Of a stretch of DNA of 64,000 nt, positions 42,536-58,929 are shown one piece after another. The DNA comes from a virus (lineage: Duplodnaviria; Caudoviricetes). Both the position numbers and the translations under genes were made by a program. The stretch spans positions 172,367-236,366 of IMG/VR virus record IMGVR_UViG_3300026085_000093; one strand, given 5' to 3'. The notes under the pieces are model-generated. The model was not told the DNA's origin, searched no databases, and saw only the letters and a list, made by a program, of their open reading frames with translations. How positions within the stretch are numbered: the first letter of the stretch is position 1; every line of letters starts with the position of its first letter.

Positions 42536-42991
42536 ATGGGATGGTACTCAGAAGTATCAAGAAATATTTCTAAAATTCCAGACGCAATTTTGTACTTTGA
42601 AAAAGAGTTACAAGATGCACGTCAAGAATGTAAACTTGTAGGAAATGTTGAAAAGTCAGCAGCAGCAATGCCTGGTATTGTTGAACATAGATTTAATCAA
42701 CTTCAAGAAATTGAAGCAATACTCAACTATCTAAATATTGAGCTACGTAGATTGCGTAGCTCATTTTTCAAAAAATATCTTGAAAATTATCAACGTGCGC
42801 TATCAAGTCGCGATGTTGAAAAATATGTCGACGGCGAAGCAGATGTTGTAGACTATGAAAAAATTATTAATGAATTTGCATTAATGCGTAACAAGTGGTT
42901 AGGTGTTTTAAAAGCACTTGATCAAAAACAATGGCAAATCACTAACGTTGTAAAGTTACGTGTAGCAGGTATGGAGGATGCAACACTTTGA
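42536..42991 (+). CDS. uvsY: Recombination mediator UvsY
   Basis: Helical; YLENYQRALSSRDVEKYVDGE.D, KALDQKQWQI.N.VKLRVAGME. Confidence 0.85.
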   Translation: MGWYSEVSRNISKIPDAILYFEKELQDARQECKLVGNVEKSAAAMPGIVEHRFNQLQEIEAILNYLNIELRRLRSSFFKKYLENYQRALSSRDVEKYVDGEADVVDYEKIINEFALMRNKWLGVLKALDQKQWQITNVVKLRVAGMEDATL

Positions 42992-43548
42992 CTGCAACTG
43001 AATGGTTTTATAAAGAAATTGGTAAAGATATCAAAGATGGATATTTTATTGAGATTGGCGTAATGAATGGCAAAACTCAAAATACTACAAAAGTTTTAGA
43101 ATTCAAAGGATGGAAAGGTTTACTAATTGAACCTGTTCCTTCAAATGTAAGAGCAATTAAGAAAAATAGAACAACACCAGTTATTCAAGGTGCTGTGTGG
43201 AAAGAAGATGGGTATGTTGATATTATCGACGTAGGAGTAAGAGGACACACAGGTATAAAAGAAACACATGCTTATCCTGAAAAAGCAATTAAAACAATAA
43301 AGGCAAAAAGTTATAAATTTAGTAGTTTGCCTATTCCTAAACATATCAACTACTTGCAAATTGATACAGAAGGTAGTGAACTAGAAATACTAGGTGCTAT
43401 TGAAGATGATTATACAATAGATTATATTTGTATAGAAGATAATGCAGGTGTACAAAATAATGATAGTACATATCATAATTTTATGACTGATTGGGGGTAT
43501 AAATTAATTTTTTCTGTCGCACAAGATAAAATTTATTGGAAAGGTTAA
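42988..43548 (+). CDS. FkbM-family methyltransferase
   Basis: FIEIGVMNG, GLLIEP, INYLQIDTEGSELEIL, YICIE. Confidence 0.8.
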   Translation: MTATEWFYKEIGKDIKDGYFIEIGVMNGKTQNTTKVLEFKGWKGLLIEPVPSNVRAIKKNRTTPVIQGAVWKEDGYVDIIDVGVRGHTGIKETHAYPEKAIKTIKAKSYKFSSLPIPKHINYLQIDTEGSELEILGAIEDDYTIDYICIEDNAGVQNNDSTYHNFMTDWGYKLIFSVAQDKIYWKG

Positions 43549-44519
43549 TTGTATCTTTCCATATCTGCTTGTACCATCATTGTAATTAATTCTTCAAAAC
43601 TTACACTAGGCTCCCAGCCTAGTTTTTCTTTGGCTTTTGTACTGTCGCCTTTTAGATAATAAAGTTCTGCAGGTCTTACAAATGCAGGATTTGTTACGAT
43701 TTTATCTTCCCAATTATCTATTCCAGCAGCACTAAATGCAGCATTACACAATTCTTTAATGCTCCAAGTTTTGCCTGTTGAAATTACATAATCTTCTGGT
43801 GTATCTTGCTGCATCATTAGCCACATTGCTTCAACGTAATCACCTGCAAATCCCCAGTCTCTTCTAGGATCTAAATTTCCTAATTCAATTGTATCTTGTA
43901 GTCCTGCTTTAATGCGAGCGACACCGTCTGTAATTTTACGTGTAACAAATTCTTTACCTCTAATAGGCGATTCGTGGTTAAACAAAATGCCACTAGTTGC
44001 GTATAAACTATAACTATCTCTATAATTTACAACCGCATTGTGTGCAAATACTTTACTAAAACCGTAAGGTGATCTAGGACGCATAGGTGTAAGTTCGTTT
44101 TGTGTATGATTATCTTCATAACTATTGCCATACATTTCGCTTGTGCTTGCTTGATAAAATTTTGTATCAGGTGAATGTTGTCTCAAAGACTCCATGATAT
44201 ACAATGGACCCATTGCATCAACATTTGCTGTATGGATTGGCTCTTGCCAACTTAGACCTACAAAACTCATGGCTGCAAGATTATAAAATTCGTGCGGTCT
44301 AGAAACTTTAATAGCATGATTAACACTACTAATATCAGTTACATCGCCATGTACAAATTTAATTTTTCCAGTGATGCCTAAATAATCAGTATTTGAATAA
44401 TTTTGGTTGACTCGTCTACTTGCAAAACCATATACTTCATAGTCTTTTTCTAATAACAGTTTTGCTAGATAAGCACCATCTTGTCCTGTGATGCCTGTAA
44501 CTAATGCACGTTTTTTCAT
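43545..44519 (-). CDS. gmd: GDP-mannose 4,6-dehydratase
   Basis: ALVTGITGQDGAYLA, YNLAAMSFV, FYQASTSEMYG, PRSPYG.SK, LFNHESP.RG.EFVTRKI, RDWG.AGDYV. Confidence 0.95.
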   Translation of the reverse strand: MKKRALVTGITGQDGAYLAKLLLEKDYEVYGFASRRVNQNYSNTDYLGITGKIKFVHGDVTDISSVNHAIKVSRPHEFYNLAAMSFVGLSWQEPIHTANVDAMGPLYIMESLRQHSPDTKFYQASTSEMYGNSYEDNHTQNELTPMRPRSPYGFSKVFAHNAVVNYRDSYSLYATSGILFNHESPIRGKEFVTRKITDGVARIKAGLQDTIELGNLDPRRDWGFAGDYVEAMWLMMQQDTPEDYVISTGKTWSIKELCNAAFSAAGIDNWEDKIVTNPAFVRPAELYYLKGDSTKAKEKLGWEPSVSFEELITMMVQADMERYN

Positions 44520-44591
44520 GTTATGCTCCGAACTTTTAATACGCAGTTATTTATTTACTAAATATACGTACTTAATTGAATAAGGATTCTC

Positions 44592-57259: not shown

Positions 57260-57516
57260 CTAAACTGTTGCCAGGAGAACCTTTGATATACGAGCGTGTA
57301 GACGGTGTTACCTTTGCTAGATACAGAGATAAACCTGAAATACCACGATGGGTAATCGGCGGTGATCCAGAAGCATTGTCTAGATTAAAAGGTGAACTTT
57401 TTAGTTGGAGTGAATATCAAGAAATGATGCAACTTTCATTAGAATATCCTGCACTAAAATCACAGATGAAAAAATTATTAGATATCTACTATCTATGCAA
57501 GGATAATAAAAAATGA
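57256..57516 (+). CDS. Hypothetical protein
   Basis: Coupled ORF; contains IYERVDGVTFAR. Confidence 0.6.
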   Translation: MTKLLPGEPLIYERVDGVTFARYRDKPEIPRWVIGGDPEALSRLKGELFSWSEYQEMMQLSLEYPALKSQMKKLLDIYYLCKDNKK

Positions 57517-58286
57517 GAATTATAGCAGGCCCATGTCAACACGAAACATTAGCACAAAGTTATGAAATTGCAAAAGAGTGCAAGCGTGTATGTGACAAAC
57601 TAGGCATTGATTATTATTTCAAAGCAAGTTTTGATAAGGCAAATCGAACAAGTGTAGATGGTAAACGTGGTGTTGGAATGGAAGCAACATTACTAGATTT
57701 TATCACACTAAAAGATAAGTTAAATGTAAAAACTCTTACTGATGTACATGATGTCATGCAAATTAAGGCTATTACAAATCAATTTAACAATGCAGTAGAT
57801 GTTTTACAAATTCCGGCATTTTTATGCAGACAAACAGATTTAATTCAAGCGGCTTGTATGACTGACAAAATTGTTAATATTAAAAAGGGACAATTTTTAG
57901 CGCCTTGGGATGTCAAAGGCATACTAAGTAAAACTGCTAGTGCTAAAGAAGTATGGATAACTGAAAGAGGAACAAGTTTTGGATATAACACCCTTGTTGT
58001 TGATTACAGCGGTCTTGATTGGATGCTCAATAATCTTTCTGTGCCTATCGTGCTGGATTGTACTCACGCTGCCCAAAAACCCGGGGGACAAGGGACTAGC
58101 AGTGGCGGCAATCGTGATCTTGTTCCTGGGTTCAGCCGTAGCGGGGCTGCTCTTGGGATATCAAATTTCTTCCTCGAAGTACACAAACTGCCTGATAACG
58201 CACCAAGCGATGGTCCGAATATGCTTCGACTAGATGATTTTGAGGAGGTAGTATATGACATCGTACGCTATTCTTATACCCGCTAG
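57513..58286 (+). CDS. kdsA: 3-deoxy-D-manno-octulosonate 8-phosphate synthase
   Basis: IIAGPC, FKASFDKANRTS, LTDVH, QIPAFLCRQTDL, NIKKGQFL.P, ERG.SFGY, D.THA.QKPG, FLEVH..P.NA.SDG. Confidence 0.93.
   Translation: MRIIAGPCQHETLAQSYEIAKECKRVCDKLGIDYYFKASFDKANRTSVDGKRGVGMEATLLDFITLKDKLNVKTLTDVHDVMQIKAITNQFNNAVDVLQIPAFLCRQTDLIQAACMTDKIVNIKKGQFLAPWDVKGILSKTASAKEVWITERGTSFGYNTLVVDYSGLDWMLNNLSVPIVLDCTHAAQKPGGQGTSSGGNRDLVPGFSRSGAALGISNFFLEVHKLPDNAPSDGPNMLRLDDFEEVVYDIVRYSYTR
57979..58233 (+). CDS. Candidate overprinted 84-aa two-TM membrane protein (+1 frame of kdsA)
   Basis: Two hydrophobic helices joined by PKNPGDK; GAGGA 7 nt before TTG; coincides with a roughly 52% GC patch lacking A-ending kdsA codons. 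Confidence 0.55.
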   Translation: MDITPLLLITAVLIGCSIIFLCLSCWIVLTLPKNPGDKGLAVAAIVILFLGSAVAGLLLGYQISSSKYTNCLITHQAMVRICFD

Positions 58287-58929
58287 AATAGGCAGCACAC
58301 GGTTCCCAAGAAAACCATTAGCATTATTAAACGGTATGCCGCTAATTAGTAGGGTGTACAATAAGTGTATTGCAACAGGCATTGATACATATGTTTTAAC
58401 TGACAGTAGGAAAGTTGCTCAATGTGTTCCTTTTACGAATGTTCTTTATACAGATGAAGCTACAAACGGCACTGAAAGGTGTGGAAAATCTATCGCTCAT
58501 CAAAAACTTGCTAACTACACACATTTTATAAACGTACAAGGCGACATGCCTGATATTACAGAAGATATTATCTTATCTGTAAAGCAGCAATTAGAAAAAT
58601 ATGATGTAGTAACTGCTTATACAGAAATGTCAGATGAAATGAAAAACGATCCTAACAGTGTAAAACTAATTAGAACTGGTGATCGTGCATTGTGGTTTGG
58701 TAGAGGTACAACTGGATATGGAGATTGGCACATAGGCATTTACGGATATACAAGAGAAGCATTAGAACAATATCTAAAATTTGATGTGTTTATAGAAGAA
58801 GAACTTGAGGGTCTTGAACAATTACGTTGGCTAAAAAATGGTTGGCAAATTTATTGTTCTAGTGTACAATTTAATGGTGTAGAAATAAACACACCTGAGG
58901 ATGTTGAACTTTGGCAAACAAAGAATTAG
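58255..58929 (+). CDS. kdsB: CMP-Kdo synthetase (3-deoxy-manno-octulosonate cytidylyltransferase)
   Basis: ILIPARIGSTRFPRKPL, NGTERC, INVQGDMP, HIGIYGY, E.LEQLRWL, EINTPEDV; GAGGAGG Shine-Dalgarno. Confidence 0.92.
   Translation: MTSYAILIPARIGSTRFPRKPLALLNGMPLISRVYNKCIATGIDTYVLTDSRKVAQCVPFTNVLYTDEATNGTERCGKSIAHQKLANYTHFINVQGDMPDITEDIILSVKQQLEKYDVVTAYTEMSDEMKNDPNSVKLIRTGDRALWFGRGTTGYGDWHIGIYGYTREALEQYLKFDVFIEEELEGLEQLRWLKNGWQIYCSSVQFNGVEINTPEDVELWQTKN

What the first reader, a model, noticed from the sequence alone, without database searches (positions are those of the whole stretch)
42988..58929. Phage-encoded Kdo/ulosonate glycan pathway: KdsA and KdsB plus three KpsS/KpsC-like transferases within a large sugar island
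Seen: kdsA and kdsB; three paralogs with (I/F)R(G/P/D)(H/K) and VT(Y/I)xSxx(G/A)xx(A/S)xxxG(I/V)P motifs (49449, 50206, 52854); three paralogous GT-A proteins, a GT8-like gene, gmd, two further cytidylyltransferase fusions, cupins and methyltransferases. Known: KpsS/KpsC are CMP-Kdo-dependent beta-Kdo transferases. Inference: the phage makes its own CMP-activated ulosonate donors and polymerises a complex methylated glycan for virion decoration or host-surface remodelling (superinfection exclusion, receptor masking). KdsC and KdsD are not in the window and may be host-supplied.
Basis: partly seen in the sequence, partly recalled or inferred. Interest (0 to 1): 0.72.

Follow-up and report, generated by a model that had tools for sequence, protein, structure and literature searches.

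The report
Phage glycan cassette with altered Kdo-type transferases
An uncultured marine jumbo phage carries genes for making the activated bacterial sugar CMP-Kdo plus a conserved sugar-chain cassette with a late-type promoter box, whose three unannotated enzymes are clear relatives of bacterial Kdo transferases that have all lost the residue those enzymes use for catalysis; so the phage probably builds a glycan of its own by altered chemistry, on a target that is still unknown.

Summary
kdsA, a kdsB-like gene, gmd, a GT8 gene, three GT-A-like paralogs, two nucleotidyltransferase fusions, methyltransferases and three paralogs with the stated motifs are all at the stated places. The window is the end of a 236-kb jumbo T4-like phage contig.

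The three paralogs belong to a very large family with no Pfam or PHROG model (4405 clusters at 50% identity).
- **Profile:** it aligns with KpsC/KpsS at 95% probability.
- **Catalytic residues:** none of the three keeps the Asp nucleophile of the defining QxxxD motif (Gly, Ser and Pro instead). One also lacks the Gln and the His-Pro motif. They are relatives, not members, of GT99/107/140, and beta-Kdo transfer cannot be assumed.

In 160 related phage loci the cassette sits between uvsY and uvsW. A T4-type late-promoter box precedes its first gene in 53 of 70 loci. kdsA-kdsB is an optional add-on. It tracks a fourth, canonical QxxxD paralog that this phage lacks, but the link follows one clade and is not statistically independent.

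Donor and target remain inferred. This scan has noted the same system on other phage DNA.

The parts
42536..42991 (+). UvsY-like recombination mediator; conserved left border of the cassette
   Evidence: phrog_231 E 1e-16; present in 76 of 80 related loci
42988..43548 (+). FkbM-type methyltransferase (variable part of the island)
   Evidence: PF05050 43 bits, cut-off 22.7; 9 of 80 loci
43545..44519 (-). GDP-mannose 4,6-dehydratase (Gmd), with an ATAAATA box 29 nt upstream on its own strand (44548-44554)
   Evidence: PF16363 E 2e-117; TIGR01472 383 bits; box
44592..45356 (+). GT-A-like paralog 1 (DxD motif)
   Evidence: BLASTP to the two other paralogs, E 3e-11 and 9e-15
45353..46657 (+). Fusion of a CMP-ulosonate-synthetase-like domain with an RraA-like (pyruvate aldolase family) domain
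   Evidence: PF02348 E 6e-17 and PF03737 E 5e-26; PDB hits NeuA and HMG/CHA aldolase relatives; only 2 of 80 loci; same architecture in bacterial Atlas clusters
46641..47399 (+). Unknown 252-aa protein; no family match
   Evidence: No Pfam or PHROG hit; 2 of 80 loci
47403..47954 (+). Weak methyltransferase-like protein
   Evidence: Pfam Methyltransf_25/23 below cut-off; phrog_22502 E 1e-5
48000..48007 (+). T4-type late-promoter-like box TATAAATA, 4 nt before the first gene of the conserved cassette
   Evidence: One of only 2 exact copies in 64 kb. Same box and spacing before the tail tube gene at 29167. Box present before this gene in 53 of 70 related loci and before 0 of 70 uvsX and 0 of 48 uvsW
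48012..48782 (+). HxGH nucleotidyltransferase (HldE domain II-like) fused to a type II PMI-like cupin; first gene of the conserved cassette
   Evidence: TIGR02199 E 4.5e-20 and PF01050 E 7e-21; phrog_7878 E 3e-28; model pLDDT 89.7; 72 of 80 loci
48782..49465 (+). GT8-family glycosyltransferase
   Evidence: PF01501 36.3 bits, cut-off 24.3; 77 of 80 loci
49449..50219 (+). Kdo-transferase-like paralog, 'P type': Asp at the base position, Pro in place of the motif Gln, Lys in place of the His-Pro His
   Evidence: 138 orthologs all keep D87, P153, R187, K/R189 and S229 (numbering of the 50206 protein)
50206..51120 (+). Kdo-transferase-like paralog, 'G type': D87, Q153-R-N-G-G157, H189-P190
51090..51956 (+). 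GT-A-like paralog 2 (the Atlas record starts at residue 10, so the true start is probably the ATG at 51117)
51941..52867 (+). GT-A-like paralog 3, with a weak CBM5/12-like N-terminus
52854..53705 (+). Kdo-transferase-like paralog, 'S type': Glu base, Q-x-x-x-Ser, R-P-H-P-R
   Evidence: the Ser is invariant in 47 distinct orthologs
57513..58286 (+). KdsA, Kdo-8-phosphate synthase
   Evidence: NF003543 321.7 bits, cut-off 242
58255..58929 (+). KdsB-like CMP-Kdo synthetase
   Evidence: KdsB models 119-158 bits, below cut-offs; all 13 PDB sequence hits are KdsB

Best explanation
**What it is.** A phage-encoded, soluble glycan-assembly line. Its conserved core runs from 48012 to 53705: a nucleotidyltransferase-PMI fusion, GT8, two GT-A-like enzymes and three Kdo-transferase-like GT-B enzymes. 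The core is inserted between uvsY and uvsW in a large clade of aquatic T4-like jumbo phages. A T4-type late-promoter-like box precedes it, so it is probably made together with the virion proteins.

**The three GT-B enzymes.** They descend from the same stock as the retaining Kdo transferases KpsC/KpsS, WbbB and KrkA.
- Two of them (50206, 52854) keep the acid base, the Gln, and the His-Pro motif that protonates a CMP leaving group.
- All three lack the Asp that forms the covalent Kdo-enzyme intermediate.
- The likely consequence (inferred) is that the two His-Pro-bearing enzymes still take a CMP-linked ulosonate, most simply CMP-Kdo. They would transfer it by direct displacement, which would invert the linkage to alpha, rather than by double displacement.
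- The third (49449) has a Lys/Arg in place of the His and does something further removed.

**Supply and tailoring (inferred).** The phage's own KdsA and KdsB-like enzymes top up the CMP-Kdo pool, with the host supplying KdsD and KdsC. Gmd, the GT-A/GT8 enzymes and the methyltransferases add and tailor other sugars.

**Target (inferred).** No enzyme has a membrane segment and there is no flippase, polymerase or exporter. The acceptor is therefore most likely a cytoplasmic, phage-made one, probably a virion protein.

**Shown:** gene identities, homology, fold, motif states, synteny, and conservation of the promoter box.
**Inferred:** donor, stereochemistry, timing and target.
For: **Fold**
- Foldseek top 28 PDB hits are all WbbB, KpsC or KrkA (E 1.5e-8 to 2e-6). 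The best generic GT-B comes after them at 1e-5.

**Profile**
- hhalign of 127 family members against KpsC-N/KpsC-C/KpsS gives 95.1% probability and E 3e-8.
- D87 lies on KpsC E66, Q153 on Q156, G157 on D160, and H189-P190 on H194-P195.
- The roles of these residues come from PMC9587256, PMC10148158 and PMC12887879.

**Selection on the altered motifs**
- Each type keeps its own invariant motif across 47-120 distinct orthologs. They are selected enzymes, not decaying copies.

**CMP-Kdo supply**
- KdsA passes its equivalog cut-off.
- The KdsB-like protein matches only CMP-Kdo synthetases in the PDB.

**Conservation of the cassette**
- The gene order is kept in 160 related loci.

**Promoter box**
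- ATAAATA is depleted in the window: 12 copies against 32 ± 6 expected.
- Almost every copy lies just upstream of a gene, including the tail tube gene, gmd and the first cassette gene.
- The box precedes the first cassette gene in 53 of 70 relatives and no uvsX or uvsW gene.

**Soluble enzymes**
- No 19-residue window in any island protein reaches a Kyte-Doolittle mean of 1.6, except one in UvsW.

**Context in an unrelated phage**
- A family member in a Mu-like phage contig lies between the portal and MuF head genes. It sits with methyltransferases, a GT2 gene and a gene carrying Pfam PF01973, MptE-like.
Against: - The donor is not established. kdsA/kdsB are absent from 26 of 28 related genomes that have the same three enzyme types, so the cassette works without a phage-made Kdo supply.
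- Two other phages with kdsA lack this family: cyanophage S-SCSM2R, which carries kdsA/kdsB, and an unannotated 462-kb phage record.
- The residues that bind Kdo are not conserved even between the known families (PMC10148158). Specificity therefore cannot be read from sequence.
- The only paralog type with the full catalytic set is missing from this phage.
- The promoter reading rests on analogy with T4.
- No obvious Ser/Thr-rich acceptor protein stands in the window.
Confidence: 0.45

Rival explanations
1. Same cassette, different donor. The nucleophile-less enzymes no longer use CMP-Kdo. They would take another activated sugar: the product of the conserved nucleotidyltransferase-PMI fusion (an NDP-heptose or NDP-mannose type sugar), another CMP-ulosonate, or, in this phage, the product of the CTP_transf_3-RraA aldolase fusion. 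kdsA/kdsB would then serve only the canonical QxxxD paralog found in relatives, and would be a leftover here.
For: - The nucleotidyltransferase-PMI fusion is a near-universal partner of the three enzyme types: 72 of 80 loci. kdsA is found in 7 of 80.
- Among genomes that span the kdsA site, kdsA is present in 18 of 19 with a QxxxD paralog and in 2 of 28 without one (raw Fisher p 7e-10).
- The window lies inside a well-supported clade in which 14 of 16 members have both the QxxxD paralog and kdsA. That placement suggests a recent loss of the canonical enzyme here.
Against: - Two of the three enzymes keep the His-Pro motif and the Gln. Known enzymes with these use CMP-linked sugars (PMC9587256).
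- The kdsA and kdsB-like genes here are intact and score well.
- The kdsA/QxxxD link needs only 3 and 5 changes on the UvsX tree. Independent pairs are too few for any test.
- The nucleotidyltransferase-PMI fusion could equally feed the GT8 and GT-A enzymes.
Confidence: 0.22
2. Host-surface remodelling. The enzymes alter the host's lipopolysaccharide or capsule during infection. This would block superinfection or mask receptors, as has been proposed for glycosyltransferases of pelagimyophages and cyanomyophages.
For: - KpsS and KpsC act on a lipid acceptor at the inner membrane, and Kdo is an envelope sugar (PMC12887879).
- Published interpretations of marine myophage GT8 and rfaE-like genes and of cyanophage kdsA/kdsB favour host-surface change (PMC7029224; PMC12801897).
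Against: - No island protein has a membrane segment. No flippase, polymerase, ligase or ABC exporter stands in the island.
- The phage enzymes (256-304 aa) lack the C-terminal membrane-anchoring region described for KpsC.
- A late-type box heads the cassette. That is late for protecting an infected cell of a lytic phage.
Confidence: 0.18
3. DNA hypermodification. The transferases put sugars on modified bases of phage DNA, as the T4 glucosyltransferases do. That would explain the position among recombination and replication genes.
For: - The cassette lies between uvsY and uvsW, next to gp32 and uvsX.
- The T4 DNA glucosyltransferases are GT-B enzymes (my own knowledge, not tested here).
Against: - No thymidylate-synthase-family base hydroxymethylase is in the 236-kb contig.
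- Seven transferases plus methyltransferases point to an oligosaccharide, not a one- or two-sugar base adduct.
- The late-type box precedes the cassette in most relatives but none of the uvsX and uvsW genes beside it.
- An unrelated phage has a family member inside its head-gene module.
Confidence: 0.07

Closest known systems
KpsC and KpsS (CAZy GT107; Pfam Capsule_synth PF05159), beta-Kdo transferases that build the poly-Kdo capsule linker
   Same: - Profile homology: 95% probability.
- An acid aligns with the base Glu66, a Gln with Gln156, and His-Pro with His194-Pro195 in two of the three paralogs.
- The C-terminal S...G.P nucleotide-binding box is shared.
   Different: - Asp160, the covalent nucleophile, is replaced by Gly, Ser or Pro.
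- The Pfam model does not detect the phage proteins.
- The phage proteins are single modules of 256-304 aa with no membrane-anchoring tail.
- They are phage-borne, sit beside GT-A enzymes and methyltransferases, and have no kps export genes.
WbbB N-terminal module (GT99) of Raoultella/Klebsiella O12, the terminal beta-Kdo transferase
   Same: - Best Foldseek hit, E 1.5e-8, and best Z, 13.8.
- The spacing from the motif Gln to the His-Pro His is 36 residues here and 37 in WbbB (Q228, H265).
   Different: - No Asp at the position of Asp232.
- No sequence-level match to any PDB chain.
- The helical insertion is shorter (304 against about 400 residues).
KrkA (GT140), the Kdo transferase of the E. 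coli K13 capsule
   Different: KrkA keeps Q189-x-x-x-D193. Its base comes from a different structural element. The phage enzymes align their acid with the KpsC base and lack the Asp.
Inverting CMP-sialic acid transferases with the His-Pro motif, the proposed ancestors of the Kdo transferases
   Different: The overall architecture is closer to the Kdo transferases than to the sialyltransferases. No sialic acid pathway is present in the window.
Glycosyltransferase clusters and kdsA/kdsB noted in marine myophages (pelagimyophage host recognition cluster, PMC7029224; cyanophage S-SCSM2R, PMC12801897)
   Same: GT8, rfaE-like and methyltransferase genes occur in aquatic T4-like phages. kdsA/kdsB are annotated in one cultured cyanophage. 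Cultured Pelagibacter phage Mosig has two members of the family beside glycosyltransferase, sulfotransferase and methyltransferase genes.
   Different: Neither of the two papers, in the passages I searched, mentions the Kdo-transferase-like family or this uvsY-uvsW cassette. Both interpret the sugar genes as host-surface modification. S-SCSM2R has no member of the family.

Membership tests
Retaining beta-Kdo transferases (GT99 / GT107 / GT140) | Modified GT-B architecture with a reduced, displaced N-terminal domain | tested here: met
   [not shown]
Retaining beta-Kdo transferases (GT99 / GT107 / GT140) | Absolutely conserved Asp nucleophile of the QxxxD motif (WbbB D232, KpsC D160, KrkA D193) | tested here: not met
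   The aligned position is Gly157 in the 50206 protein, Ser in 52854 and Pro in 49449. These states are invariant in their orthologs. An Asp two residues earlier is not conserved, at 18 of 47.
Retaining beta-Kdo transferases (GT99 / GT107 / GT140) | His of the His-Pro motif, which protonates the CMP phosphate | tested here: met
   Met in 50206 (H189-P190) and 52854. Not met in 49449, which has Lys-Ala there.
Retaining beta-Kdo transferases (GT99 / GT107 / GT140) | Carboxylate general base (WbbB E158, KpsC E66) | tested here: met
   An acid aligned with KpsC E66 is present in all three: Asp, Asp and Glu. In 127 family representatives the position is Glu in 63 and Asp in 62.
Retaining beta-Kdo transferases (GT99 / GT107 / GT140) | Use of CMP-beta-Kdo with retention of configuration | not testable with these tools
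   Needs enzyme assays and NMR of the product.
Pfam Capsule_synth (PF05159) | Match to the family model above its cut-off | tested here: not met
   No Pfam hit at E 0.01 for any of the three. No PF05159 match at E 1 anywhere in the contig. The same search finds KpsC and KpsS in E. coli CFT073.
KdsA (Kdo-8-phosphate synthase) | Equivalog model above its cut-off | tested here: met
   NF003543 321.7 bits, cut-off 242. DAHP synthase models score far lower.
KdsB (CMP-Kdo synthetase) | Equivalog or subfamily model above its cut-off | tested here: inconclusive
   All five best models are KdsB, but each scores below its cut-off (best 158 against 193). All 13 PDB sequence hits are KdsB, and no NeuA reaches E 1e-5.
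Complete CMP-Kdo pathway (KdsD, KdsA, KdsC, KdsB) | All four steps encoded | tested here: not met
   No KdsD/KpsF (TIGR00393) and no KdsC (TIGR01670) in the 236-kb contig, which is about 66% complete.

The most novel reading that the evidence does not exclude
The three paralogs would represent new catalytic classes of the Kdo-transferase fold. Two would be nucleophile-less enzymes that still use a CMP-ulosonate but invert the linkage. One would have a Lys or Arg in place of the catalytic His. Together with GT-A enzymes and methyltransferases they would put a methylated, Kdo-containing glycan on virion proteins of a large, abundant clade of aquatic T4-like phages. That would be the first case of Kdo on a virus particle and a new glycosyltransferase family with thousands of members.
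Probability: 0.25. Interest if true: 0.8.

Novelty: new variant of a known kind. Interest (0 to 1): 0.6.

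Why it matters
- **Mechanism.** Retaining Kdo transferases are the only glycosyltransferases shown to work through a covalent Asp-sugar intermediate. They have been thought of as a small, odd bacterial group. Here the same fold appears as a very large, unannotated, mostly phage-borne family (4405 clusters at 50% identity). About a third of its representatives keep the Asp and the rest replace it in a few fixed ways. 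That offers a natural series for asking how the mechanism arose from inverting ancestors or reverted to them.
- **Phage biology.** A conserved glycan cassette with a late-type promoter box, in an abundant clade of aquatic jumbo phages, points to glycan decoration of phage-made material. That is a little-studied layer of phage biology, with possible roles in adsorption, stability or escape from recognition.
- **Testability.** Cultured carriers exist (Pelagibacter phage Mosig, Caulobacter jumbo phages), so the prediction can be tested.
- **Annotation.** kdsA/kdsB in phages should not be read automatically as host LPS manipulation.

Tried and rejected
- **No close cultured relative.** Megablast of the island against 50,697 phage records found nothing.
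- **No sequence-level family match for the paralogs.** A profile of the family found no PDB chain at E 10. Pfam and PHROGs gave nothing for the three paralogs. PF05159 gave nothing in the contig. The link to KpsC needed fold comparison and hhalign.
- **kdsA linked to the canonical QxxxD paralog.** I first read the raw counts (18 of 19 against 2 of 28, Fisher p 7e-10) as strong functional evidence. On a UvsX tree, kdsA needs only 3 changes and the paralog 5, and independent pairs are too few for any test. I report it only as a clade-structured lead.
- **A relocated nucleophile.** An Asp or Glu two residues after the Gln is present in 52854 and 49449, but it is not conserved in orthologs. Rejected.
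- **kdsA as a general marker of the family.** Cyanophage S-SCSM2R and a 462-kb uncultured phage have kdsA but no family member. The kdsA hit in 'Acinetobacter phage MD-2021a' lies in a bacterial pyrG-kdsA-eno context and was discarded.
- **Substrate of the nucleotidyltransferase-PMI fusion.** Folding it and searching the PDB returned only generic metal cupins and said nothing about the substrate.
- **A Ser/Thr-rich acceptor.** A search of the virion proteins in the window found none; the highest share in any 50-residue stretch is 0.42.

Full report
**Setting.** The window is the last 64 kb of a 236-kb IMG/VR virus contig that CheckV rates about 66% complete. It encodes a tail sheath, tail tube, baseplate and fibre proteins, a large terminase, gp32, UvsX, a UvsY-like protein and UvsW. 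The terminase is 52% identical to that of Pseudomonas phage PA5oct and less to other jumbo myophages. No phage record matches the island at the DNA level. This is an uncultured jumbo T4-like phage.

**Observation.**
- KdsA passes its NCBIfam equivalog cut-off: 321.7 bits against 242.
- The KdsB-like protein scores below the KdsB cut-offs, but it hits only KdsB models and only CMP-Kdo synthetases among PDB sequences.
- Gmd, a GT8 enzyme, an FkbM methyltransferase, a weak methyltransferase and a cupin are confirmed.
- The two fusions are a CTP_transf_3 domain with an RraA-like aldolase domain (45353), and an HxGH nucleotidyltransferase with a PMI-type cupin (48012).
- The three KpsS/C-like ORFs are real paralogs, with E 2e-23 and 1e-22.
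- The three GT-A-like ORFs (44592, 51090, 51941) are paralogs with a DxD motif. Language-model neighbours of one of them are viral nucleotide-diphospho-sugar transferases.
- The region is not one uninterrupted sugar island. An unknown gene, uvsW and a phage gene of unknown function lie between the cassette and kdsA/kdsB.
- KdsC and KdsD are absent from the contig.

**What the three paralogs are.** They have no Pfam or PHROG match, and a family profile finds no PDB sequence. The family is nonetheless very large: 2753 proteins in one search and 4405 clusters at 50% identity in another, almost all unnamed.
- An AlphaFold model of the 50206 protein (pLDDT 87.8) has WbbB, KpsC and KrkA as its best 28 Foldseek matches, with nothing else among them.
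- I took KpsC and KpsS from E. coli CFT073 and compared a 127-member alignment of the phage family with them by hhalign. The result was 95.1% probability, E 3e-8, over 202 columns.

**Catalytic residues.** The literature defines these enzymes by three features (PMC9587256, PMC10148158, PMC12887879):
- an Asp nucleophile in an invariant QxxxD motif, which forms a covalent Kdo adduct;
- a His of a His-Pro motif, which protonates the CMP phosphate;
- a carboxylate base.

In the hhalign alignment the residues of the 50206 protein map onto KpsC as follows:

| 50206 protein | KpsC | Role in KpsC |
|---|---|---|
| D87 | E66 | general base |
| Q153 | Q156 | motif Gln |
| G157 | D160 | covalent nucleophile |
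| H189-P190 | H194-P195 | protonates CMP phosphate |

The nucleophile is therefore gone. The 52854 protein has Ser at that position. The 49449 protein has Pro there, Pro for the Gln, and Lys for the His.

These are not decayed copies. Across 80 related loci each type keeps its own invariant signature:

| Type | Gene in this window | Invariant signature | Distinct orthologs |
|---|---|---|---|
| G | 50206 | D-S base, Q-R-N-G-G-W-S-M, H-P-G-D | 71 |
| S | 52854 | E base, Q...S.Q-W, R-P-H-P-R | 47 |
| P | 49449 | D base, Pro for Gln, Lys/Arg for His, conserved Arg and Ser | 120 |

Among 127 family representatives the nucleophile position is Gly in 45, Asp in 37 and Ser in 29. The base residue co-varies with it: Glu goes with Asp or Ser, and Asp goes with Gly. 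A few members have a natural Cys there. The family thus contains canonical-looking members and several fixed departures, and this phage has only departures.

**Context in relatives.** In 80 loci found with the G-type profile, the gene order is conserved:
- gp32, uvsX, uvsY-like;
- the cassette: nucleotidyltransferase-PMI fusion, GT8, one to three P-type genes, the G type, one or two GT-A-like genes, the S type;
- sometimes the unknown 403-aa gene;
- uvsW, a phage gene, a cupin, a small gene;
- sometimes kdsA-kdsB;
- further conserved genes.

The block Gmd, GT-A-like 1, CTP_transf_3-RraA fusion and the unknown 252-aa gene is shared only with the two closest loci.

A fourth paralog type with the full set (Glu base, QxxxD, His-Pro) occurs in 15 of the 80 loci, but not in this window. 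A second sample of 80 loci found with that type shows the same cassette.

**kdsA and the canonical type.** I counted only genomes that contain a marker gene downstream of the kdsA site. kdsA is present in 18 of 19 with the canonical type and in 2 of 28 without it. The raw Fisher p is 7e-10.

On a UvsX tree, however, kdsA needs only 3 changes and the canonical type only 5, and independent pairs are too few for any test. The link is a lead, not evidence.

The window sits in a supported clade of 16 in which 14 members have both traits. Its lineage has therefore probably lost the canonical enzyme while keeping kdsA and kdsB.

Two phages from other lineages carry kdsA but have no family member: cyanophage S-SCSM2R and a 462-kb phage.

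**Timing and location.**
- The T4 late-promoter consensus TATAAATA occurs only twice in 64 kb, and both copies end four bases before a start codon. One precedes the first cassette gene at 48012.
- The shorter ATAAATA occurs 12 times against 32 ± 6 expected. Nearly every copy lies just upstream of a gene on the same strand, including the tail tube gene and gmd.
- The box precedes the first cassette gene in 53 of 70 related loci. It precedes 0 of 70 uvsX, 0 of 75 uvsY-like and 0 of 48 uvsW genes.
- By analogy with T4 this points to late expression together with the virion genes.
- No island protein has a membrane-spanning stretch, and there is no flippase, polymerase or exporter.
- In an unrelated Mu-like phage contig a canonical-type family member lies between the portal and MuF head genes. 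Its neighbours are methyltransferases, a GT2 gene, a weak GT9-like gene and a gene with Pfam PF01973, MptE-like. In another contig the neighbours are methyltransferases, GT8 and GT4.
- Methyltransferases are recurrent neighbours in the contexts I read: three of the three longer than 3 kb, and Pelagibacter phage Mosig.

**The other supply genes.**
- *The fusion at 48012.* Its N-terminal half matches HldE domain II best: TIGR02199 E 4.5e-20, and the PHROG for heptose-1-phosphate adenylyltransferase E 3e-28. Among PDB sequences it matches CDP-alcohol cytidylyltransferases. Its C-terminal half is a type II PMI-like cupin. Its model is confident, but the fold search gave only generic cupins. It probably supplies an NDP-heptose or NDP-mannose type sugar, perhaps for the GT8 and GT-A enzymes.
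- *The fusion at 45353.* It joins a NeuA/KdsB-like domain to a domain of the pyruvate aldolase family. This suggests an aldolase route to a second CMP-ulosonate. It is rare among relatives (2 of 80 loci), and clusters with the same architecture, mostly bacterial, exist.

**Reading.**
- *Most likely (0.45).* A soluble, probably late-expressed, phage-encoded glycan line. The G- and S-type enzymes would still use a CMP-linked ulosonate, most simply CMP-Kdo topped up by the phage's KdsA and KdsB. They would transfer it without the covalent Asp step, hence probably with inversion, onto a cytoplasmic phage-made acceptor, most plausibly a virion protein.
- *Rivals.* The same cassette with a non-Kdo donor (0.22), host-surface remodelling (0.18) and DNA glycosylation (0.07). 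No thymidylate-synthase-type hydroxymethylase is in the contig.

**What is known.**
- kdsA/kdsB were reported in one cultured cyanophage and read as host cell-wall modification (PMC12801897).
- GT8 and rfaE-like genes were noted in pelagimyophages and read in the same way (PMC7029224).
- My searches found no paper that links phages with Capsule_synth-type or Kdo-transferase-like enzymes.
- Cultured carriers of the family are annotated 'hypothetical protein': Pelagibacter phage Mosig, with two copies beside glycosyltransferase, sulfotransferase and methyltransferase genes, and the Caulobacter jumbo phages.
- This scan has already noted the same kind of system on other phage DNA. Those notes are AI notes. 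I tested the fold, the motifs, the uvsY-uvsW position and the promoter box myself.

**Verdict.** This is a new variant of a known kind: a large phage-borne sister family of the retaining Kdo transferases with fixed losses of the catalytic nucleophile, set in a conserved cassette headed by a late-type promoter box. Donor, stereochemistry and target are open and testable in cultured phages.

Noticed in passing
window 23461-23468, 29156-29162, 48000-48007: The late-type box (T)ATAAATA ends exactly four bases before the ATG of three genes, including the tail tube gene. That leaves no room for a ribosome-binding site, so late mRNAs may be leaderless or nearly so. ATAAATA is strongly depleted elsewhere: 12 copies against 32 expected.
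   Followed up: partly
window 45353-46657: Fusion of a CMP-ulosonate-synthetase-like domain with an RraA-like pyruvate-aldolase-family domain. It could be an aldolase route to an activated 3-deoxy-ulosonic acid, distinct from PEP-dependent synthases such as KdsA. It is rare in related phages (2 of 80 loci), and the same architecture occurs in bacterial clusters.
   Followed up: partly
window 53722-54933: A 403-aa protein of unknown function directly upstream of uvsW. It is conserved in about 25 of 80 related loci and has only viral relatives. Its Atlas model has low confidence and faint structural likeness to SNF2-type helicases. It does not look like a sugar enzyme.
   Followed up: partly
proteins P0236, P0259, P0263 (family representatives): A few natural family members carry Cys at the nucleophile position. 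This is the very substitution used in the laboratory to trap the Kdo adduct in WbbB, KpsC and KrkA.
   Followed up: no
locus L171 5374-11237: In a Mu-like phage contig a canonical QxxxD family member lies between the portal and MuF head genes. Its neighbours are a gene with Pfam PF01973 (MptE-like), three methyltransferases, a GT2 gene and a weak GT9-like gene. From memory, PF01973 also covers the Maf flagellin glycosyltransferases; if so, this is a second, independent hint at virion protein glycosylation.
   Followed up: no
locus L090 (CAKLQF020000008.1): The record named 'Acinetobacter phage MD-2021a' carries pyrG-kdsA-eno, aroF, the pca operon and clpA around the kdsA hit. It looks like bacterial chromosome filed as phage.
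   Followed up: no
window 51941-52060: The third GT-A-like paralog begins with a short CBM5/12-like carbohydrate-binding segment (25.5 bits, just under the cut-off of 26.2).
   Followed up: no
loci L028-L032, L037, L040 and others: In many relatives the P-type gene is present in two or three tandem copies, with one more on the opposite strand in some. The number of family members per cassette ranges from two to six.
   Followed up: partly
window 56873-57259: A small metal-cupin gene, related to the cupin half of the 48012 fusion (same PHROG), stands between uvsW and kdsA. It is kept in many relatives that lack kdsA, so it is not a specific partner of the Kdo genes.
   Followed up: partly
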